Virus record (IMG/VR): IMGVR_UViG_2866360957_000001
Span: 15,162 to 79,161 of that record
Length of the DNA: 64,000 nt
Source: a virus
Taxonomy: Duplodnaviria; Caudoviricetes
Strand: one strand, 5' to 3'
Positions 2,198 to 38,918 of the stretch are shown piece after piece. A program made the translations under genes and the position numbers. Under the pieces are notes generated by a model, which saw only the letters and a list, made by a program, of their open reading frames with translations, was not told where the DNA came from and did not search any database. Every line of letters starts with the position of its first letter. Within the stretch, counting starts at the first letter, position 1.

Positions 2198-4937
2198 TCA
2201 CGCGATCGCCGCCGTCTACCGCTACGCCGACCGGGACGGCGACGAGCTGACGGTCGCCAGCGTGGCTTACGACGGTGTGCCACACGCGGCCATAGGAGTA
2301 CAGACGAGCCGCGGCCCGGCCGCCGTACATGTCCACCCCGAGGAAGCGTGGGAGTTGTGTGAGGCGATCCTGACAGCCGCGGGCGTGGACGGCGTAGGGG
2401 GCGGTAGGGATGGCTAGCTGGACACGCCGCGAGCGCACCGTCACCTATGTCGAATACGCGCTGGATCTGCCGGCTAATTGGGCCGAGGTCAGCAAGATCT
2501 TCGCGGAACTCAACCAGGAGCTCGGGGAGCGCGCCGAGTGGGACGACGCCGTCGAGGTGACCTCCGACAGCGCGGAGCTGGTGTTCCGCTACGTCAAGGA
2601 GGGCCCGTGATCGAGATCGCCATGCCGACTGATGGGCGCCCAGTCGCTGCCGGTGTCGCGCTGGACCGCGCCCGCAGCGATGGTGGCCTGCGCCTGCGGA
2701 TCGCCTGCGCGCTGTGGCAACGGGACCCGCAGGACGACCGAACGCCGTCGGCCGCCGGGCACCTCGGCGGCTACGTCTACGAGATGGCCGACCGGGTGGC
2801 CGCCGTGGTCGAGGAGATCCGGCGCGAGGACGCCGAGCGGATCGCCGCGGCGATCGAGGCACGCCGCTGCCCGTCCCCGGAGCTCTGCAAGAACTGCGTA
2901 TGTCGCCGAGAGGACGCCGCTCTCGTCCGCACCACGACGGGGGAGGCGGTCGCCGAACCGGCTGAACCGGAGCTGTCCGCGCGCTTCCTCTGGCACTGGA
3001 GACCGATGTCGCCGCAGGAGGTATGCGACATGACCGGCATCCCCGAGGACGAAATCCGGCGCCTGTACGGCGACACCGTGCTCGTGAAATGGGACCTGCG
3101 CGGCCCGCAGGAGTTCCGCTGGGGCGGCCCCGGCCCGTCGCCCGAGATCGAGGAGACGCGAGCGATCGACGACCGCGCCATGGAGGGGAACGACGGTGAC
3201 CAGCCCTGACGACTACCTGCGCACCGCGCTGCCGGTGCTGCTCACCTACACCCGCCAGGTCCTGCTCGATCTCGACCTGGGCCGCATGCGCGCCGCGGCC
3301 GAGGAGGCGAGCGATCAGACCGCCGTCGATTTCCTCAGCGCGGCGATCGTGTTCGCCCAAGCGGCGAGCCTCGCCCGCGACCGCGTCTACCCGGAGGGAG
3401 CGTGATGTTCCGCCACCGCCACCGCTACACGCCGATCGGCGTGCTCCATGAGCGCGCGCCGTTCGCCAACGCGACCACCCTCGTCCTGCGCCGCTGCTCC
3501 CGGTGTGGTGCGCACGACGTCGAGACGCTGCCCGGTCGCTGGGACGAGGCGCTGTTCGTGCACGGCACGGCCGCGCCCGATCCACAGGGGGCCGATCATG
3601 TCTGAGGTCGCAGGCTTCTGCCCGATGGGCTGCGGCCGGACCCTGTTCCTTGCCGAGGGCGGGCACGTCACCTGCTCGTCACTCCGATGCCCGAGGCCGA
3701 CGGTGGTCGATGAGCTGCTCGACGACCGGGAGTCCGAGCACCTCGTGCTGTTCGACGCCGCCGGATTCACCATTCGCCACCCCTTGCACGAACGCCTTGG
3801 CGACGCCCTGATGATCTGCCCGCTGCACTCCGACATCCAGGGCAGCAGCGGGCCGCCGGTCGCCCCAGGCCGCTATCGCGCCGTCCGGGTCGCGGACGGC
3901 TGGGTTTGGCAGATCAGCCGAGGTGTGTCGTGATCGCGGCGGCGGTCAACGCGGCGCTCGCAGCCTGGTGGCTGTACGCGGCCTGCTACGTGGGCCGCCA
4001 GCTCACCGTGCCGCTCAATGCCGCCGACTTGACCGTGTTCCTGCTCTGGACCGGCGCGGCCATTGCCAGCGCCGTCCTAGCCGCCCGCGCCATGGAGGAC
4101 CGACCATGACCATGATCAAACGCTGCGACGGCTGCGGCTCGGAGATCCGTGACCGTGACGACTGCGTGACCGTCGTGCGCGACAGCCTGTACGGCGGGGG
4201 GATGATCCACGATCCGGTCCTTCCGGATCAGGACAAGCCACTGCACTGGTGCCACGGGTGCGCGACGAAGGCCATCACCGCCACGAAGGGAAAGCCGTGA
4301 ACGAACCACACCTCACACCCGCTGAGCAGGAGGCGCTCGACGCCCGTACGGCCCGCTGGGCACGCATCGCGGGGATCGCCGCCCTCGCGGCCCTGGCCAT
4401 GGCCGGTGCCGCCATCTGGCTCGGCGACACGCGGTGGGCCTGGACCGGCGGCCTGGTCATGCTCGCCGCTGGCGGCTTCGGTGCAGCCGCCGCCATGGCC
4501 GCATCCCCTGAGACTCGGCGGCGCATGGCCGCTCGCCGTCGCGCGGACGAGGAGATGCCGTGAAATCGCAACCGGTCAAGGTCGAGGTCGATTTGTCCAC
4601 GATTGAAACGGTGTGCGCCGAGCTGCGTGAGCTGGTCCGCGAGGCCCACGGCGTCACCGGGGATCTGCGCAAGGCCGTGAAGGACGCCAGACGGACCGTG
4701 GAGTCGGACATCGCGCAGACGATGGAGGCCGAGGTGAAGCGGCAGGTCGCCGAGCTGGGCGAGGTCACCGCCGAGGCGATGCGCAACTCCGTGGCCAAGG
4801 TCGGCCGCGAGTTCGATCGATTGGAAGCGATCTTCCTTGGCGCCGACCCGCAGTCGAAACGCAAAGGGCGGCCGCCGCTGGAGGACCTCATCCGCGAGCA
4901 CCTCAACTCCACCCGATCCCAGAGAGGAGACACCTGA
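2190..4937 (+). CDS. Run of about 10 small overlapping hypothetical phage genes (2190-2417, 2410-2610, 2607-3209, 3196-3405, 3402-3605, 3598-3933, 3930-4109, 4106-4300, 4297-4563, 4560-4937)
   Basis: Consecutive ATGA/GTGA overlaps with GGAG RBSs. Includes Cys-rich ORFs (3598: CPMGC..C...C) and membrane ORFs (3930, 4297). Confidence 0.65.
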
Positions 4938-5332
4938 TGAAGCGGAAGCACGCGCACGAGTACTCACCTGAGGAGTTTGACCGTGCCGTCACGATGATCC
5001 AGTCGGACGCGGACCTGCGCGCCGACATCGAGGCCATCACCGGACAGAGCCTGGAGGGGAAGACCCCGCGCGAGCTGTTCGATACCTTCCGCTCGATCCA
5101 GCATGCCGCCGAGGTCCAGGCCGCCGTGGTCAACTACGGCCGGGCCCGTCAGGCCGTTCGGGACACCCGGGCCATGCTGGAGGCGGACGCGTCGGCCGAG
5201 GAGGCGCTGGGGCTCGCCCGCAAGGAGATCGAGCGCCTGGAGAAGTCCAACGAGGAACTGAAGCGGAAGAATCAGGCCCTGTCCGCCGGTCAGGGTGCGA
5301 CGCCACTGCGGGTCGCTGGAGGCCGGGCGTGA
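4937..5332 (+). CDS. Helical/coiled-coil protein directly upstream of the RAMP gene
   Basis: RBS GAGGAG, TGATG overlap, C-terminal heptad coil (LARKEIERLEKSNEELKRKNQAL), GTGA overlap with 5329. Confidence 0.7.
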   Translation: MKRKHAHEYSPEEFDRAVTMIQSDADLRADIEAITGQSLEGKTPRELFDTFRSIQHAAEVQAAVVNYGRARQAVRDTRAMLEADASAEEALGLARKEIERLEKSNEELKRKNQALSAGQGATPLRVAGGRA

Positions 5333-6084
5333 GCGCGGCCGACATCTTCGGGATCGCTGAGCCGGTCGCCACGTACCGCGTGCGGCTCCAGGTGCACAGC
5401 AAGATCGTGGGGGGCGTGCCATCGAGCTCGTCCGTCATCAAGGGCTGGCTGAAGACGCGCCTCGACCTGGGCGACCGCGACCTCCAGGAGCTGGCGGAGC
5501 AGACGTTGCGCGAGCGGTTCCCGGACCGCCAGCCGACCGCCGACGCGCTCGCCGGGGCGCTCATGGAGTCGGAGGCCGCCGAGCTGTCGGTGAACGGCTT
5601 CAAGCGCTTTGGGGACGTCCTGACCTACGAGGCGCGGTGCATGAAGGCCGCGATCAAGGAAGCGATGAACTCGGCGTATCCCGGCACCGACTGGGACGGA
5701 AAGAAGGGGGCCGGTGCCCACAAGCCGAAGATCGGCCAGCCGCTGCCCGCGAGCTTCCGCAAGGGCCTGATGAGCACCGCCGCTGAGCGCGTGTTCGTGG
5801 TCGGCGATGTGCACCGCGACTACATCTCGCTCGGTGTAAGCGCGCCGAGTGGGATCGAGGAGCGGGTGAAGCACGTCAAGACCCCGCAGGGGCCTAGGTC
5901 GTCGATCGCGCGCGTGGAGTACGTCGAGTGCCCGACCTTGAGTTTCACCGTGCGCGTGCACGACGACTTCCTGTCGCGCGAGGCGTGGGGCCGGATCTGG
6001 GTTCGCCTTCAGGACATCGGGATCGGTGCCGACCGCAGTAGGAGTGATGGGCAGTTCGAGCTGATCACCTGGGAGCGGGTGTGA
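5329..6084 (+). CDS. Stand-alone Cas7/Csm3-like RAMP-fold protein
   Basis: RAMP motifs in the expected order: N-terminal strand YRVRLQVHSKIVGG; LTYEARCMKAAIKEA (cf. IPGSSLKGAIR); ERVFV; PRSSIARVEYV..TLSFTVRV; C-terminal Gly-rich loop GIGADRSRSDGQF (cf. GLGxxRSRGYGxF). Confidence 0.75.
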   Translation: MSAADIFGIAEPVATYRVRLQVHSKIVGGVPSSSSVIKGWLKTRLDLGDRDLQELAEQTLRERFPDRQPTADALAGALMESEAAELSVNGFKRFGDVLTYEARCMKAAIKEAMNSAYPGTDWDGKKGAGAHKPKIGQPLPASFRKGLMSTAAERVFVVGDVHRDYISLGVSAPSGIEERVKHVKTPQGPRSSIARVEYVECPTLSFTVRVHDDFLSREAWGRIWVRLQDIGIGADRSRSDGQFELITWERV

Positions 6085-6097
6085 GGTTCCGTTCCAG

Positions 6098-6750
6098 CGA
6101 CGCCGTATCCGACACGGCTAGCCCAACCATGCTGACAGCCCACCGTTGCTCTTCGCGGGACGACCTGCCCGGCCCTGCCTCCACGGTCCCGGCCTCACCA
6201 CGCCGACACCCCAGCTCTAGTCACGCGCCCGCCGCATCGGCCCGCTTCGACTTGCCTTGCTCGCGTCTGCTCATGCCAGGCCGTCGCACGTCAGCCCAGA
6301 TCGACACGTCGAGCCGCGTCAACGCCAAGCCCTGTCGCGCCCGTCCTGTCCGCGCCGACCAGCCTTGCCGGGCCAATCCGCTGCTCTCCGCACCGACTTT
6401 TCGAACCCAACCCGCCCATGTCCGGAGCCGTCCATGTCCACCCCGTTCGACTGGCCTACCGCTACCCGAAGCCGACTGTCTCCGCGCGACTGCTCTCCCC
6501 CAGCCAGGTCCGGCCAAGGCGACATCCCCACCCAGGGCATGCCTGCCCGACCTCCCACCTCCATCCTGCCCATGCCGAGCCCCAGCGACAGGCCGTACCC
6601 AGCCTTTCCTGGCCCGGCGACACGTCATGCCGAGTCCCGGCGACAGGCCGTACCCAGCCTTTCCTGACCCTGCGACACGTCATGCCGAGCCCTGACGGGC
6701 GCGGACCGACCCACCCCGACACGCCGATCCTCACCTCACCCATCCGGCCC
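6098..6750 (+). ncRNA. Non-coding periodic array of GAC-(NNNYC)n units; putative guide/scaffold RNA array for the upstream RAMP protein
   Basis: GAC at 6111, 6134, 6162, 6205, 6249, 6303, 6357, 6395, 6449, 6488, 6521, 6549, 6587, 6619, 6642, 6674 and 6718, separated by runs of pentamers that nearly all end in C. Strong C skew. Fills the gap between the RAMP stop (6084) and the RBS GGAGGT (6755). Confidence 0.7.
6571..6692 (+). repeat. 55-bp tandem duplication (about 2.2 copies) inside the array
   Basis: catgccgagccccagcgacaggccgtacccagcctttcctggcccggcgacacgt at 6571-6625, repeated with few mismatches at 6626-6680, partial third copy from 6681. Confidence 0.9.
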
Positions 6751-6764
6751 ACCTGGAGGTGCCC

Positions 6765-7399
6765 ATGACCGACTTGCGCCAGCGGTACGCCGCGGCGATG
6801 CTCGACAACATCTATCCGCCCGAAGAGATCACCGAGCGGGCGACCTACTGTGGGCGGGTCTTCCCCGCCATAGAGCGCATTCTTGCCGTACGCGACCAAG
6901 AGGCCGAGCGGCACCGCATCGAACTGGCGGCTGTGCGCGAAGCTCAGGATCGCGCCACACGGGCCGAAGCCGCCCTTGCCCGCGCTCTGGCGGTCTGCGG
7001 CCAGGCTCTGGCCACACCCGACGCCCCGGATCGCTGGTTTGTCGCCGCGCAGGTGAAGGCCGCCATCGAGGGGCGGCCGTGATCGCGCTGATCGTGCTGG
7101 GCGCGCTGGTCGTCTACGCGGCGGGATTCATGGCCACAGCCCGTGTGATGGCCGCTGTGGACCGCCGCGCGCATATGGAGCCTGACGAGGGTTTGATCAC
7201 GCTGGTGGCCGCCGGTTGGCCCATCTTTGCTCCCGTCTGTCTCGTGCTCTTGATCGGAAGGCTGCTGTACCGCCTGGCCACGCGCGATGCCGGGATTCCT
7301 CGCGCCGAACGCCGCCGCCGGCAACTTGCCGAGCGACAGTCGGAGATCGCCGACCTGGAGCGCTGGCACGCCGCGTTCGACCACCGGGAGGATGGATGA
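6765..7399 (+). CDS. Two hypothetical genes (6765-7082; membrane protein 7079-7399)
   Basis: RBS GGAGGT, GTGA overlap; the second has two hydrophobic helices. Confidence 0.65.
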
Positions 7400-13618: not shown

Positions 13619-13870
13619 CTAGCTCTGGACCGCGGTGATCCGCTCCCCGTCCACCGCGGCCCGGAATCGCCGCCCGGGAAGGGAGGCGACCACCAGGCCG
13701 AGCATGGCCGCCAACTCCACCGCGGGCACCCTGAGCGGATCGGCCACAGGATGGAAGGGTGTCGCCACCTCTGCGTGCGGCCCGAAGAGCAGCGACACCC
13801 GGGCATCCACCCAGCGCGGCGGCGCGAGCCCCTCGCGCGCCGCGTCCGGCCCCGCCTCCCAGTCGTTCAC
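13619..13870 (-). CDS. Hypothetical protein (paralogue of 11190-11405)
   Basis: AEVATPFHP..PLRVPA...LPGRRF. Confidence 0.65.
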   Translation of the reverse strand: MNDWEAGPDAAREGLAPPRWVDARVSLLFGPHAEVATPFHPVADPLRVPAVELAAMLGLVVASLPGRRFRAAVDGERITAVQS

Positions 13871-14388
13871 TCTGACACCGCCTTCACCGCTTTCGGCCGA
13901 CCACCCTTGCGCTCCCAGGTCGCCGCCCAGCGCCGCACGGCGGCCCCCGGCCAGATCGCCCCGGCCGCCAGCGTCTGAAGGGGCTGCGGGAAGTCGTCAC
14001 GCCGACTGAGCTGATCGGCGCGCTGGCGGGTCACGTCGAGCAGCTCGGCGATCTCGCGCACGCCCATAAGCTCCGGGGGCGTCTGCCGGAGTTCTTCATC
14101 GAGCTCGTCCTCCGGGAGAGCCTCGACCCGCACCGCGCGGGCCGACACGCCGAACTCGCGCAGCGCGGCCGTCACCTCCCGCACGGCCGCGTCGATCGCC
14201 TGCCGGACGGTGGATCCGTCGATGCTGAGCTGGATGCTCACCCGGTCGGCAACCTGCCTGCCCGCCGCATAGGCCGCGCCGGCGGCGGGGTGGCGCGCCG
14301 CGAGGCGCTCGCGCAGGTGCGCGTCAAGCGCCTCGCTGTAGTCGGCGCCGGTGTCGGCGTCGATCCGCACACTCCACACGGGCCTCAT
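13867..14388 (-). CDS. Putative HicB-like antitoxin with C-terminal HTH
   Basis: Coupled to the HicA-like gene; ELMGVREIAELLDVTRQRADQL..RDDFPQP HTH. Confidence 0.65.
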   Translation of the reverse strand: MRPVWSVRIDADTGADYSEALDAHLRERLAARHPAAGAAYAAGRQVADRVSIQLSIDGSTVRQAIDAAVREVTAALREFGVSARAVRVEALPEDELDEELRQTPPELMGVREIAELLDVTRQRADQLSRRDDFPQPLQTLAAGAIWPGAAVRRWAATWERKGGRPKAVKAVSE

Positions 14389-17189: not shown

Positions 17190-17762
17190 TCAGGACTCCT
17201 CGGCGGGGTCCAGGGCGTCGGACAAGCGCAGGTAGTCGAGCACCGTCCGCAGCCGCACGCCTGCGGCCTGGGCCTCGCGCACGGCCGCCGCGATCGGGGC
17301 GAGCACCTCTCGGTGCTCGGCGATCGCTGCCTCCAGGCGGTGCAGGTCGGAGGTTACGTGCGGCCGGTTCTCGGCCATGAACCTGATCACGTCCGCGGCC
17401 GGCGTCGGGGCGTCGAGTGGGAACAGGCAGTACTCGCCCGTCGCCCACCGCCACGCGGCGTCCTCTGTAGGGCTGGAGACCTCCGGCGTCAGTTCCACGC
17501 CTGCCGCGGTGCCGGCGGTCCCGGGTAGAAGAAGCCGGTTCGGGGACACGTCGAGCGCGAGGGCCAGGGCGACGAGCTCATCGGAGTCCACCCGGCGCTG
17601 GCCTTGCTCGATCTTGTGGATGCCGGATGCCAGGATGGGGCGCCCAAGCTCGGTCACGCGCGCGGACAGGGCGCGCACGCTGATCCCGCGCGCGTCGCGC
17701 AGAGCCTTGATGTTGGCCGCCACGCGCAGGCCGGTCGGTCCTGGCTCCTGGATTGTCCCCAT
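17190..17762 (-). CDS. XRE-family transcriptional regulator (repressor-like)
   Basis: VAANIKALRDARGISVRALSARV...IHKIEQGQRRVDSDELVALALALDVSPNRLL. Confidence 0.85.
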   Translation of the reverse strand: MGTIQEPGPTGLRVAANIKALRDARGISVRALSARVTELGRPILASGIHKIEQGQRRVDSDELVALALALDVSPNRLLLPGTAGTAAGVELTPEVSSPTEDAAWRWATGEYCLFPLDAPTPAADVIRFMAENRPHVTSDLHRLEAAIAEHREVLAPIAAAVREAQAAGVRLRTVLDYLRLSDALDPAEES

Positions 17763-17879
17763 GGCGGGCACAGTAGTAGCCGGTTGACGAACGTGCAATA
17801 CGGCACCAGACTGTCCCCATCACGGGTACAAACATCAGTGCGAGGGGGACGCGAGCGGTGTCGGAGCACTGGCGGGCCC

Positions 17880-27573: not shown

Positions 27574-28481
27574 AGCATCTGATCACCGTGCGGGCGAACG
27601 CCGCGCCCGTCAGCCTCCATCCGCGGGCCGCCGCAGAACCCGAAGGACTGGACTCCACTCCCGCCGCCGAGGCCCGCGCTGAGAGCACGGGGGAGCAGGT
27701 CATGGTGTTGCGCTTCTCGGCGTTCGGCGTGTGGTACGAGATCAACTCCTGGTACGAGGGCCGCTATCTGGAGCGCGTCCTGCCCGGCGCGTTCGCCAAG
27801 ACCATTCAGGAGCGCGGCGACCGGGTGAAGATCTTCTTCAACCACGGCTACGACTACCAGATCGACCAGAAGATCCTCGGCGTGCCCGAGCTGCTGGAGG
27901 AGCGCACCGACGGCGTGTGGGCCGAGGTCCCGCTGCTCGACACCTCCTACAACCGCGACCTGATCCCGGGCCTGCGCGCCGGCGGGTATGGCAGCAGCTT
28001 CATGTTCAACGTGCTGGACGAGCTGTGGAATCACGAGCCCGGCGAGTCCGAGCACAACCCGGAGGGCCTGCCCGAGCGCAGCATCCTTCAGGTCCGTCTC
28101 TTCGAGGCCGGGCCGGTCACCTGGCCGGCGTCGCACGCGGCGACCGCCGGGATGAGGTCCGTCGCCGGGCTCACCGACTGGTACGGCGAGCAGCTCCGCA
28201 CCCGCGACTCGGGCCGCCACGACGCGCTCGTGCGCGGCTTCACCGACTTCCGTGCCCAGCACGGACTCCGCACCTCCGAAAGCGAGGCCGTCCCGCCCGC
28301 CGCCGACCCGCAGCAGGTCGCCGACGAACGGCAGGACACCGCGCCGGACGAGGCCGCGACCACCCCGACCGACGCGCCGGACACCCTGGTAGTGCACCAC
28401 GCGGCAGGTCTCACCCATTCGCAGCGCGCCGCCCGACTGCGGGCGCAGCGCTATTCGTTCCTGACCAGGGAGGCGTCCTGA
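27570..28481 (+). CDS. HK97-family prohead protease
   Basis: ERVLPGAFAKTI, FNHG, SSFMF, LFEAGPVTWPA. Confidence 0.9.
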   Translation: MKHLITVRANAAPVSLHPRAAAEPEGLDSTPAAEARAESTGEQVMVLRFSAFGVWYEINSWYEGRYLERVLPGAFAKTIQERGDRVKIFFNHGYDYQIDQKILGVPELLEERTDGVWAEVPLLDTSYNRDLIPGLRAGGYGSSFMFNVLDELWNHEPGESEHNPEGLPERSILQVRLFEAGPVTWPASHAATAGMRSVAGLTDWYGEQLRTRDSGRHDALVRGFTDFRAQHGLRTSESEAVPPAADPQQVADERQDTAPDEAATTPTDAPDTLVVHHAAGLTHSQRAARLRAQRYSFLTREAS

Positions 28482-29944
28482 TGGACGAGATCCTGCGCAG
28501 GCTCGGTGAGATCGAGACCGAGATGCGTGAAATGCACGAGGCCGCTGGCGATGCGGCGTTCACCGAAGAGCAGCAGGCCCGCTGGGCCGAGCTGGAGGAG
28601 CAGCGTGCCGAGCAGCTCCGGCTCCAGGAGGAGGAGCGCGCCCGCCAGGCCGACCTGGACCGGCGGCGCAGCGCGGTCGCCGGGTTCGCCGCGCGCGGCA
28701 CCACCGAGGCCGGGGACGGCAACCTCGACGTGCGTGGCGTGCAGGTGATGCAGCGCGTTGACCCGTGGGACGGCGCCGACGTGCGGGCCCTGCCGGACCT
28801 GAAGGCGCGCGACAAGGCGCTGAAGGCGCTGGAGGACCGTGACCTGACGGCGCACACCAGCGACGAGCAGCTCGCGCGGGCCATCAAGGTCCTGCGCACC
28901 CGCACCCGGGACTGCAACGGCGCGTACGTCGCCCGCCGCATGCTGCTGACCGAGAACGAGCACTACCGGTCGGCGTTCATGAAGTTGATCATGCGCGCCC
29001 ACCCCGTGCTCACTCCCGAAGAGCAGCACGCCGTCGAGGCGTACGAGGAGTACCGGGCCATGTCGATCGGCAGCGACCCGGGCGGCGGCTTCGGCGTCCC
29101 GGTGCTGATCGACCCGACGATCATCCTGACGGCGCAGGGCAGCCCGAACGACATCCTCAACCTTGCGCGCGTCGAGACGATCACCAACGACGAATGGAAG
29201 GGCGTCACCAGCGCGGGCGTGTCCTGGTCGTTCGACCCGGAGTCGGCCGAAGTGTCGGACGACAGCCCGACGCTGGCACAGCCCACAGTGCCAACGCACA
29301 AGGCGCAGGGCTACCTCCCGTACACCATCGAGGTCGGGATGGACTACCCCGGTTTCGCGACGGAGATGAACGCACTCCTCGATGAGGGCTACCGGGAGCT
29401 GCTAGCGCAGACCCTCACCACCGGGTCGGGCGTCAACGCGCCGACCGGCATCGTGACCGCGCTCGACGCGAACACCAACGTCGAGGTCGCCGTCACCACG
29501 GATGGCGCGTTCGGCGGTGCGGACATCTACAAGCTGTGGGACGCGCTGCCGATCAAGTACCGCAACCGGATGCCGAATTGGATGTCGTCCACGGATGTCA
29601 TGAACGAGGTCAGGCAGTTCGGCTCCGGCGGGTCCGGCGGCTCGAACTTCTCGGTCAACCTGACGCAGGAGTCGATCCCGCGGCTGTTCGGGAAGCCGTA
29701 CTACGAGAACGACTTCATGGACGACTTCACCGCTACGACCGGCGCCGCGAACCTGCTGATCGTGGGCGACTTCCAGAACTACCTGGTCGCCCAGCGCGCG
29801 GGGATGAGCGTCGAGCTCGTGCCGCATGTGTTCGGCACCACGAACAACCGGCCGATCGGCCAGCGCGCCTGGTACGCCTGGGCCCGCGTCGGTGCCGACT
29901 CGATCAACGACGCCGGGTTCCGCATCCTCCAGAACATCGCGTAA
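28481..29944 (+). CDS. Major capsid protein (HK97 fold with N-terminal delta domain)
   Basis: Coiled N-terminus; GGFGVPVLIDPTII; GDFQNYLVAQR...RVG. Confidence 0.92.
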   Translation: MDEILRRLGEIETEMREMHEAAGDAAFTEEQQARWAELEEQRAEQLRLQEEERARQADLDRRRSAVAGFAARGTTEAGDGNLDVRGVQVMQRVDPWDGADVRALPDLKARDKALKALEDRDLTAHTSDEQLARAIKVLRTRTRDCNGAYVARRMLLTENEHYRSAFMKLIMRAHPVLTPEEQHAVEAYEEYRAMSIGSDPGGGFGVPVLIDPTIILTAQGSPNDILNLARVETITNDEWKGVTSAGVSWSFDPESAEVSDDSPTLAQPTVPTHKAQGYLPYTIEVGMDYPGFATEMNALLDEGYRELLAQTLTTGSGVNAPTGIVTALDANTNVEVAVTTDGAFGGADIYKLWDALPIKYRNRMPNWMSSTDVMNEVRQFGSGGSGGSNFSVNLTQESIPRLFGKPYYENDFMDDFTATTGAANLLIVGDFQNYLVAQRAGMSVELVPHVFGTTNNRPIGQRAWYAWARVGADSINDAGFRILQNIA

Positions 29945-38842: not shown

Positions 38843-38871
38843 TACCGACCGCGCCCTGTTCGCCGATCGAG

Positions 38872-38918
38872 GGTCAAGCCCAGCTTGACCTCTGCCAGGT
38901 CAAGCCCAACTTGACCTC
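38872..38918. promoter_or_regulatory. Two tandem copies of the palindrome GGTCAAG-N5-CTTGACC
   Basis: 38872-38890 and 38898-38916, intergenic. Confidence 0.7.

What the first reader, a model, noticed from the sequence alone, without database searches (positions are those of the whole stretch)
6098..6750. Grammar of the array: GAC-delimited units of 4-10 pentamers ending in C
Parsed by hand. Examples: 6162 GAC ctgcc cggcc ctgcc tccac ggtcc cggcc tcacc acgcc; 6357 GAC cagcc ttgcc gggcc aatcc gctgc tctcc gcacc; 6488 GAC tgctc tcccc cagcc aggtc cggcc aaggc; 6521 GAC atccc caccc agggc atgcc tgccc; 6718 GAC acgcc gatcc tcacc tcacc catcc ggccc. GAC-to-GAC spacings are 23, 28, 43, 44, 54, 54, 38, 54, 39, 33, 28, 38, 32, 23, 32, 44, almost all 5n+3 or 5n+4. 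Pentamer positions 1-2 are highly variable and positions 4-5 are conserved (YC). A period of 5 is incompatible with codon structure. (C)GAC may mark processing sites or unit boundaries, giving about 16 guides of different lengths (inference).
Basis: seen in the sequence. Interest (0 to 1): 0.85.

Follow-up and report, generated by a model that had tools for sequence, protein, structure and literature searches.

The report
Phage VIPR guide-RNA array (pentamer repeats)
The odd five-base rhythm is real and marks the guide-RNA array of a prophage VIPR system, a CRISPR-like RNA-guided DNA-silencing device first described in 2026 preprints, so it is a new example of a recently discovered kind and not a new kind.

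Summary
Window 6098-6750 is a non-coding, C-rich (46% C, 24% G) gap whose C residues recur every 5 nt (lag-5 z = 7.3 against shuffles). It is the only such stretch in the 9.8-Mb genome. CGAC is over-represented (19 against 8.4 expected). It resets the pentamer phase by 3 nt.

The gene just upstream (5329-6084) folds as a Cas7-like RAMP. It forms a conserved cassette with a 131-aa helical partner (4937-5332) and the array, inside a prophage. The same cassette occurs in 12 of 12 related genome loci and 15 of 17 viral contigs. It also occurs in many distant metagenome loci and in Microcystis phage Mae-JY09.

This matches VIPR systems (bioRxiv 10.64898/2026.04.26.720920). There a Vipr RAMP protein filaments on RNAs made of GGY/NN pentamers, and the NN bases pair with DNA.

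Three things are open here: which strand is the RNA, whether GAC is a processing site, and what is targeted. No target was found. The finding is a new member of a known kind.

The parts
4937..5332 (+). 131-aa accessory gene (vap-like). Helical, with a long helix at residues 44-118. Its stop overlaps the start of the RAMP gene.
   Evidence: The ORF is. A homologue lies directly upstream of the RAMP gene in 10 of 13 loci compared, aligned as A2. The AF2 model has pLDDT 79.7. Foldseek PDB gave no match at E <= 0.001. No Pfam, PHROG or NCBIfam family above cut-off.
5329..6084 (+). vipr-like gene: a 251-aa Cas7-like RAMP protein with a C-terminal glycine-rich loop, IGIGADRSRSDGQFEL.
   Evidence: AF2 pLDDT 82.2, pTM 0.73. 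The top Foldseek PDB rows are all Cas7-family: type VII Cas7 8z4l_F E 1.2e-6, then Csm3, Cmr4 and Cas7-11. VIA-align, independent of Foldseek: Csm3 9g9a_D Z 10.8, Cas7-11 Z 10.2, type VII Cas7 Z 10.2. Profile-profile match to the phiSUSP1 Vipr family: probability 71.5%, E 3.6e-5, 128 columns. No Pfam, PHROG or NCBIfam hit.
6097..6123 (.). Conserved junction motif GCGAC-GCCGT-loop-ACGGC-TAGCC. It is a hairpin with stem 6102-6106 / 6114-6118, at the vipr-near end of the array.
   Evidence: Present in the related loci with variable loop length. At the closing pair, 17 are T:A, 6 are C:G (compensatory) and 1 is T:G. These counts are among 26 distinct matches to the search pattern, two of which (L060 and window 26665) are unrelated chance matches.
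6124..6750 (.). The array: pentamers NNnCC on the + strand (GGnNN on the - strand), grouped into blocks of 4-10 by GAC (+) / GTC (-) insertions.
6571..6692 (.). 55-nt tandem duplication (2.2 copies, 92% matches) that copies a two-block stretch of the array.
   Evidence: Tandem Repeats Finder. The duplicated blocks have near-identical NN strings at 6590/6645 and 6622/6677.

Best explanation
The region is the RNA array of a prophage-borne VIPR (Viral Interference Programmable Repeat) system. The cassette has three parts: an accessory gene (4937-5332), a vipr gene for a Cas7-like RAMP protein (5329-6084), and a 650-nt array of tandem pentamers (6124-6750).

By analogy with the characterised phiSUSP1 system, one Vipr protomer binds each pentamer. 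The protomers form a helical filament that buries the conserved GG(Y) bases and displays the two variable bases. The displayed bases pair with double-stranded DNA while skipping every third target base, and this silences genes of competing phages.

Shown here: the periodic grammar, the RAMP fold, the conserved three-part cassette across many phages, and the distant profile match to the SUSP1 Vipr family.

Inferred:
- That RNA is made and bound.
- That the GAC/GTC insertions separate functional units of about one filament turn (6-7 pentamers).
- That the RNA is the minus strand. I put this at about 55% against 45% for the plus strand.
- That the targets are rival phages.
For: 1. The grammar is real and unique in the genome.

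2. The neighbouring protein has a Cas7/RAMP fold by two independent structure searches. It has the RAMP G-rich loop. It matches the SUSP1 Vipr family profile at probability 71.5%, E 3.6e-5.

3. The protein and array travel together.
- All 3 homologue-bearing genomes among the 60 relatives searched have the array.
- 12 of 12 genome-contig loci have it.
- 15 of 17 viral contigs have it.
- 55 of 91 loci with at least 300 nt downstream have an array downstream, and a further 19 period-5 regions lie upstream of vipr.
- Relatives at 31-35% identity keep the same 'GAC plus pentamers ending in C' grammar at 43-72% GC. Examples are L109, L115, L102 and Microcystis phage Mae-JY09.

4. The window is a prophage, with terminase, portal and tape measure genes. 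The host's own cas genes are type I-E and lie elsewhere.

5. The published VIPR definition fits: a RAMP homologue plus vap in a two-gene locus, mostly in (pro)viruses, flanked by YNNGG / NNNGG tandem repeats. phiSUSP1's own locus shows the same NNRCC/GGYNN arrays beside its vipr.

6. Arrays grow by pentamer slippage and block duplication: a perfect (CCAAG)x11 run in L004/L009 and the 55-nt duplication here.
Against: - No RNA data exist for this locus.
- No natural target was found. The own genome gave nothing above shuffled controls. In 110 held loci, perfect hits were 4 for the 1-nt-skip rule against 2, 5, 8 for the 0-, 2-, 3-nt skips and 6.5 for shuffles. Adjacent-block pairs gave nothing. 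One 10-pentamer block in 401 family genomes gave 7 hits at up to 2 mismatches, fewer than the reversed-pattern control, which had roughly 40 by my count of the table. In IMG/VR two 20-base patterns gave 0 hits and one 16-base pattern gave 6 against 8 for its reversed control.
- Blocks hold only 4-10 pentamers (mode 6-7). The published vrRNAs hold 9-16.
- There is no ~40-nt tail between blocks.
- The GG strand is antisense to vipr, unlike phiSUSP1.
- The SUSP1 residues that read G1 and G2 (D177, W178) align to A234 and D235 here.
- Between alignable arrays, p4 evolves as fast as the NN positions.
- The profile match to SUSP1 Vipr is moderate, not decisive.
Confidence: 0.85

Rival explanations
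1. It is the same VIPR-type cassette, but the functional RNA is the C-rich plus strand (NNnCC), co-transcribed with vap and vipr and cut out of the operon transcript. On this reading the clade uses a mirrored CC code read by a Vipr with changed base-contacting residues.
For: - 79 of 81 period-5 regions in 108 loci are C-rich on the vipr sense strand, whether upstream (19) or downstream (58) of vipr.
- Arrays run from a stop codon straight into the next ribosome-binding site. In L076, L089 and L107 that site is vipr's own, so the plus strand must be transcribed there and there is no room for an antisense promoter.
- One T:G closing pair in the hairpin (L079) pairs only on the plus strand.
- L033 has TTGCTT-18-TATCAT on the plus strand between vipr and the array (read by eye).
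- The SUSP1 G-reading residues are not kept.
- In phiSUSP1 the arrays are co-directional with vipr.
Against: - All published vrRNA motifs end in G (YNNGG, NNNGG, YNNNG, NNNNG). The plus-strand motif here is the exact complement of NNNGG.
- The single conserved hairpin plus the GGCTA junction sits at the 3' end when read in GG sense, as the tail does in phiSUSP1.
- L115, L109 and L083 have minus-strand terminator, promoter or gene arrangements that fit antisense transcription. These scans are within the noise of shuffles.
Confidence: 0.4
2. It is a passive or cis-acting spacer and not a guide array. For example, a decaying pentanucleotide satellite, or a C-rich G-poor Rho-loading (rut) or insulator region between early phage genes, with the RAMP gene adjacent by coincidence.
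For: - Perfect (CCAAG)x11 microsatellite in L004/L009.
- The composition, C 46% and G 24%, is what Rho-binding regions look like (recalled knowledge of rut sites, no call).
- No target was found.
Against: - A decaying satellite would lose all five positions alike. Here p5 changes at 0.059 per site against 0.16-0.17 for p1-p4.
- The grammar persists at 31-35% protein identity and from 43% to 72% GC.
- The array is tied to the RAMP gene in most loci while the other neighbours vary.
- It matches an experimentally characterised RNA class.
Confidence: 0.05
3. It is a protein-coding region read in an unusual way. Three long open frames cross it: 6081-6695, 6257-6667 and 6418-6768.
For: Open frames of 204, 136 and 116 aa exist on the plus strand.
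Against: - G-poor, AT-poor DNA rarely makes stop codons.
- Lag-3 autocorrelation is negative, z = -3.3.
- None of the three frames passes the GC3/GC2 screen that picks up the flanking genes.
- Orthologous arrays differ by 1-, 2- and 5-nt indels.
Confidence: 0.01

Closest known systems
VIPR systems (Vipr protein, vap gene, vrRNA), type II as in Escherichia phage phiSUSP1. Sources: bioRxiv 10.64898/2026.04.26.720920, 10.64898/2026.04.26.720927 and 10.64898/2026.10.15.759431.
   Same: - It is phage-borne.
- It has a small RAMP-fold protein with a G-rich loop.
- It is a two-gene locus with an accessory gene.
- It has long flanking non-coding tracts made of tandem pentamers, with two or three conserved positions (GG, or CC on the other strand) and variable NN.
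- A conserved hairpin sits at one end.

   Different: - The GG strand is antisense to vipr here and co-directional in phiSUSP1.
- Blocks hold 4-10 pentamers separated only by GAC/GTC. phiSUSP1 has ~100-nt RNAs of 9-16 repeats, each with a ~40-nt tail.
- There is one hairpin per array.
- The third position is weakly constrained: G 0.48 here against A 0.90 in the phiSUSP1 antisense reading.
- The protein is 251 aa against 195 aa.
- The accessory gene precedes vipr.
- The G-reading residues D177 and W178 are not aligned to like residues.
- The preprint mentions 'staggered arrays' and NNNGG variants, which may be this architecture. Its figures and supplementary tables could not be seen.
Type IV-B CRISPR-Cas (Csf) complex. 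Source: PMC7937560, of which I saw only the start of the abstract as printed in a search listing.
   Same: A Cas7-like filament with a small helical partner, no CRISPR array, and assembly on non-CRISPR RNA.
   Different: In type IV-B the RNA is heterogeneous cellular RNA with 6-nt Cas7 spacing. Here a dedicated array with 5-nt spacing is encoded next to the gene. The 131-aa partner gave no Cas11 fold match.
CRISPR arrays with class 1 effectors (Cas7 backbone)
   Same: A RAMP protein that binds RNA periodically, and an array of many short variable units next to the gene.
   Different: There are no direct repeats of 23 nt or more and no spacers of free sequence. No cas1 or cas2 lies nearby; the host's type I-E genes are about 450 kb away or on other contigs. 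The period is 5, not 6. Rfam gave no hit.

Membership tests
VIPR system | Vipr protein with RAMP fold (RRM core, glycine-rich loop, thumb) outside a CRISPR locus | tested here: met
   AF2 model with pLDDT 82. Cas7-family matches come top in Foldseek (E 1.2e-6) and in VIA-align (Z 10.8, rmsd 4.6 A over 152 residues). The G-rich loop is seen in alignments A1 and A4. The thumb was not examined separately.
VIPR system | Sequence relationship to an experimentally characterised Vipr (phiSUSP1, 195 aa) | tested here: inconclusive
   hhalign of family profile A3 against SUSP1-family profile A6: probability 71.5%, E 3.6e-5, 128 columns that include helix 1 and the G-loop. Against the single SUSP1 sequence the result is only E 0.011. 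Whether the preprint's 2,664 PSI-BLAST hits include this family could not be checked, because the supplements are closed.
VIPR system | Encoded mainly in phages or prophages, in a minimal locus of vipr plus one vap gene | tested here: met
   The prophage context is shown, and 17 IMG/VR loci. The 131-aa partner lies directly upstream in 10 of 13 loci, while other neighbours vary.
VIPR system | Adjacent tandem pentanucleotide repeats with conserved GG(Y) alternating with variable NN, at least four units | tested here: met
   The plus-strand motif NNnCC is GGnNN on the minus strand. Frequencies are p5 C 0.86, p4 C 0.72, p3 G 0.48. This fits the 'NNNGG' variant named in the preprint's Methods.
VIPR system | vrRNAs are expressed as discrete small RNAs and co-purify with Vipr | not testable with these tools
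VIPR system | Invariable structured 3' tail after the repeat tract of each vrRNA | tested here: inconclusive
   There is one conserved hairpin per array, with compensatory T:A to C:G changes. It is 3' only if the RNA is the minus strand. There is no tail between blocks, only GAC/GTC.
VIPR system | NN positions match natural DNA targets under the 1-nt-skip rule | tested here: inconclusive
   No enrichment over controls in the own genome, 110 loci, 401 family genomes or IMG/VR. The blocks specify only 12-20 bases, and only exact or near-exact matches could be searched, so the tests have low power.
CRISPR-Cas (class 1) | Array of direct repeats of about 23-50 nt separated by unique spacers, with a cas operon | tested here: not met
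   Tandem Repeats Finder finds only a 55-nt duplication. The only recurring delimiter is 3-5 nt. No Rfam CRISPR family was hit. Cas1 and Cas7e genes of the genome lie at C1:3574-6522, C31 and C77, not near C1:456918-520917.

The most novel reading that the evidence does not exclude
In this large clade the guide may be the C-rich sense strand, cut from the vap-vipr operon transcript. The clade spans Streptosporangiaceae prophages, Microcystis phage Mae-JY09 and many soil and marine phages. That would be a mirrored CC code, read by a Vipr whose G-contacting residues have been replaced. The GAC insertions would chop the filament into one-turn modules of 6-7 pentamers that act in combination. This would be a second, independent solution of the noncontiguous code and a distinct array architecture.
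Probability: 0.35. Interest if true: 0.7.

Novelty: new member of a known kind. Interest (0 to 1): 0.42.

Why it matters
The finding shows that a reader working from raw sequence alone can recover the grammar of a guide-RNA class that was published only months earlier.

It places VIPR systems in Nonomuraea-type actinomycete prophages and in a cultured cyanophage.

It also gives a compact description of an array type with three features: GAC/GTC-punctuated blocks of about one filament turn, a single hairpin per array, and a fixed orientation opposite to that of the model system phiSUSP1.

If the sense strand proves to be the guide, the code has a mirrored form. That would matter for understanding how RAMP proteins read RNA and for engineering these small DNA-binding complexes.

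Tried and rejected
Whole-region Fourier power at period 5 was not significant. I rejected it as a test because the phase slips; autocorrelation and motif-anchored profiles are the right tests.

Rfam at gathering threshold and tRNA scans of the window found nothing.

blastn and tblastn against 50,697 phage records found only Mae-JY09.

Pfam, PHROGs and NCBIfam gave nothing above cut-off for the RAMP protein or its partner. A PDB sequence-profile search gave only an irrelevant cytochrome hit.

The partner's fold search gave no match at E <= 0.001, so I do not call it Cas11-like.

Promoter and terminator scans of the window and of four lower-GC loci were at the level of shuffles.

Target searches are listed in the Against line. 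The six IMG/VR hits were inspected and matched by eight control hits, so I reject them as targets.

Before finding the preprints I considered and dropped these ideas: a Rho-loading region, a CsrA-type sponge, G-quadruplex or i-motif DNA, a type III toxin-antitoxin RNA, a TIGR-Tas array, and hammerhead-separated units. For the last, no Rfam hit was found and there is no room between blocks.

Supplementary tables and all figures of the three preprints could not be seen. They may show whether this clade is one of the seven published types and which strand its vrRNAs come from.

Rows dropped:
- In some searches and later, L019 (same as L017) and L022 (same as L012) were removed as duplicates, and L001-L005 as copies of the window or of L006, L009 and L016.
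- L032 and L034 have no array and are not in the 26-array set.
- L029's array was under-called by the boundary rule.

Full report
WHAT IS THERE

Window 6085-6758 is the gap between two plus-strand ORFs, 5329-6084 (251 aa) and 6759-7082. Within 6098-6750 the plus strand is 46% C and 24% G. GC skew stays near -0.3 across the gap and returns to zero at both flanking genes.

The five-base rhythm is real but short-range.
- C autocorrelation is 0.277 at lag 5, z = 7.3 against 500 dinucleotide shuffles. It remains at lags 10 and 15 (z = 4.8 and 4.1). Lag 3 is negative.
- A whole-region Fourier test at period 5 is flat (p = 0.75). The phase jumps every 20-55 nt, as a phase table shows.
- The signal is confined to this gap within the 64-kb window.
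- Of 195,800 windows over the 9.8-Mb genome, this is the only place with a run of seven windows above 0.2.

THE GRAMMAR

CGAC occurs 19 times against 8.4 +/- 2.2 in shuffles (0 of 1000 reach it). GAC occurs 24 times against 17.1 (2 of 1000).

I aligned 186 CGAC sites from 13 related arrays with no parsing model. C reaches 0.89, 0.87 and 0.78 at +8, +13 and +18. It reaches 0.84, 0.76 and 0.73 at -5, -10 and -15. The C of CGAC is therefore the last base of a pentamer, and GAC is a 3-nt insertion after which pentamers resume.

Spacings agree. Of 440 CGAC spacings in 26 non-redundant arrays, 155 are 5n+3 and 112 are 5n+4, against 37-94 for the other classes. The modes are 33, 38 and 28 nt. In the window alone 12 of 18 spacings are 5n+3 or 5n+4.

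A model parse of the window gives blocks of 4-10 pentamers. Over all arrays the mode is 6-7.

The region does not code for protein. Lag 3 is negative. The three open frames fail the GC3 screen. The 85%-identical array of L006 differs by 1-, 2-, 3- and 5-nt indels.

THE NEIGHBOURS

The 251-aa protein has no Pfam, PHROG or NCBIfam family. Its AlphaFold model (pLDDT 82) matches Cas7-family RAMPs by two routes.
- Foldseek: type VII Cas7, Csm3, Cmr4 and Cas7-11, E down to 1.2e-6.
- A Foldseek-independent aligner: Csm3 Z 10.8, Cas7-11 10.2, type VII Cas7 10.2. The first 28 rows are all RAMPs.

Its C-terminus carries the RAMP glycine-rich loop.

A 131-aa helical protein, overlapping its start, is the only other conserved neighbour. 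It is present in 10 of 13 loci. No fold match was found for it.

The window is a siphovirus-like prophage, with terminase, portal and tape measure genes. The host's own cas genes are type I-E and lie far away. No type III RAMP family was found in the genome.

CONSERVATION

The protein family is large: 285 proteins in one search and 918 clusters at 50% identity. The close members come from Streptosporangiaceae.

The array follows the gene widely.
- All three homologue-bearing relatives have it.
- 12 of 12 genome loci from six genera have it.
- 15 of 17 IMG/VR loci have it.
- In 80 metagenome loci of a distant clade, many have an array either downstream or upstream.
- The cultured Microcystis phage Mae-JY09 has a 35%-identical gene followed by a CCGAC-punctuated C-rich array.

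Array sequences diverge fast, but the grammar persists. The delimiter varies by clade: CCGAC here, GACGAC in L115, CCATGATGAC in L102, GCAGACAAACC in L107 and TGAC/CGAC in the 43%-GC L109. It always contains GAC.

A hairpin, GAC-GCCGY-loop-RCGGC-TAG, marks the vipr-near end. Its closing pair shows 17 T:A, 6 C:G and 1 T:G.

Arrays seem to grow by slippage, as in (CCAAG)x11 in L004/L009, and by block duplication, as in the 55-nt repeat here.

WHAT IT IS

A literature search found bioRxiv 10.64898/2026.04.26.720920. I read its abstract, Results, Discussion, Methods parts 1-2 and figure legends by search. It describes VIPR systems as follows.
- A phage-encoded RAMP homologue (Vipr) plus an accessory vap gene.
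- vrRNAs built of 9-16 YNNGG pentamers followed by a 3' tail.
- The NN bases pair with double-stranded DNA while one target base in three is skipped.
- The targets are rival phages and satellites.
- Seven types exist, with NNNGG, YNNNG and NNNNG variants, 'staggered' arrays and ribozyme-separated arrays.

A companion preprint (10.64898/2026.04.26.720927; abstract and section 5 read) shows one protomer per pentamer in a right-handed helix of six subunits per turn. There G1 is read by H17 and D177, and G2 by R138 and W178. For a third preprint (10.64898/2026.10.15.759431) I read only the abstract.

I checked the model locus directly. In phiSUSP1 (KT454805.2) the two minus-strand genes at 28031-29061 are flanked by tracts that read NNACC on the record's plus strand. 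That is GGUNN in gene sense.

A profile of the window's family matches a profile of the SUSP1 Vipr family with probability 71.5%, E 3.6e-5, over 128 columns including the G-loop.

Fold, context, cassette and repeat grammar all fit, so I file the locus as a VIPR system with confidence 0.85.

WHAT DIFFERS AND WHAT IS OPEN

First, the strand. Here, and in 79 of 81 period-5 regions of 108 loci, the C-rich strand is the vipr sense strand. In phiSUSP1 the G-rich strand is.

Arguments for the minus strand:
- If the published GG chemistry holds, the RNA is antisense to vipr.
- The hairpin then sits at the 3' end, like the SUSP1 tail.
- Some lower-GC loci have fitting minus-strand signals.

Arguments for the plus strand:
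- Arrays abut stop codons and ribosome-binding sites, including vipr's own in L076, L089 and L107. The plus strand is therefore surely transcribed, and an antisense promoter has no obvious place.
- One U.G pair is valid only on the plus strand.
- The SUSP1 G-reading residues align to A234 and D235.

I put the odds at 55:45 for the minus strand.

Second, the units. Blocks of 6-7 pentamers are about one turn of the published helix. They are separated by only three bases and carry 12-14 specified bases, fewer than published guides.

Third, evolution. In five alignable array pairs only p5 (0.059 substitutions per site) and GAC are slow. p4 (0.158) is as fast as the NN positions (0.167). The pairs are few and related, so this is weak evidence.

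Fourth, targets. None was found above controls in the own genome, the held loci, 401 family genomes or IMG/VR. The searches could only see exact or near-exact matches of short patterns. The result therefore says little either way.

VERDICT

The interpretation as an array of guides is largely vindicated by independent published work. The unit-boundary role of GAC and the existence of targets remain inferences. The element is a new member, and perhaps a distinct architectural variant, of a kind described in 2026 preprints. It is not a new kind.

Noticed in passing
L004 2396-2445 (same sequence in L009): A perfect (CCAAG)x11 pentanucleotide microsatellite lies inside the homologous array of a Streptosporangium prophage. 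It suggests arrays expand by slippage of single pentamers and then diversify.
   Followed up: partly
L035 5867-5900 (Microcystis phage Mae-JY09, record about 38866-38899): A strong GC-rich hairpin lies directly after the array, near the right end of the linear record. The array and vipr are the last features of the deposited genome, and all genes there are annotated as hypothetical.
   Followed up: no
L102 600-1400: In a distant metagenomic relative the delimiter is CCATGATGAC. The AUGAUGA within it equals the box C consensus of box C/D RNAs (recalled) and resembles the hammerhead CUGAUGA core (recalled). I did not test either idea.
   Followed up: no
L031 1890-3540 and a second tract further downstream: A 49%-identical relative carries an array of about 1,650 nt, plus a further long period-5 region flagged 2.2 kb downstream of the gene. 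These are the longest seen.
   Followed up: no
L109 4520-4900: Between the RAMP gene and its arrays, a marine 43%-GC contig has a non-coding stretch with long inverted repeats and two plus-strand promoter-like sites. It may be another structured RNA.
   Followed up: no
window 17190-17798 (-) and 13867-14388 (-): A repressor-like HTH gene and an excisionase/regulator-like gene lie on the minus strand (PHROG matches). They probably form the lysogeny switch of this prophage, which is the kind of gene that published vrRNAs of other phages target.
   Followed up: no
G000 C1:3574-6522 and C77:185940-189196: The host genome has two type I-E cas loci (Cas7e and Cas1 family matches), and a third Cas1 on contig C31.
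   Followed up: no
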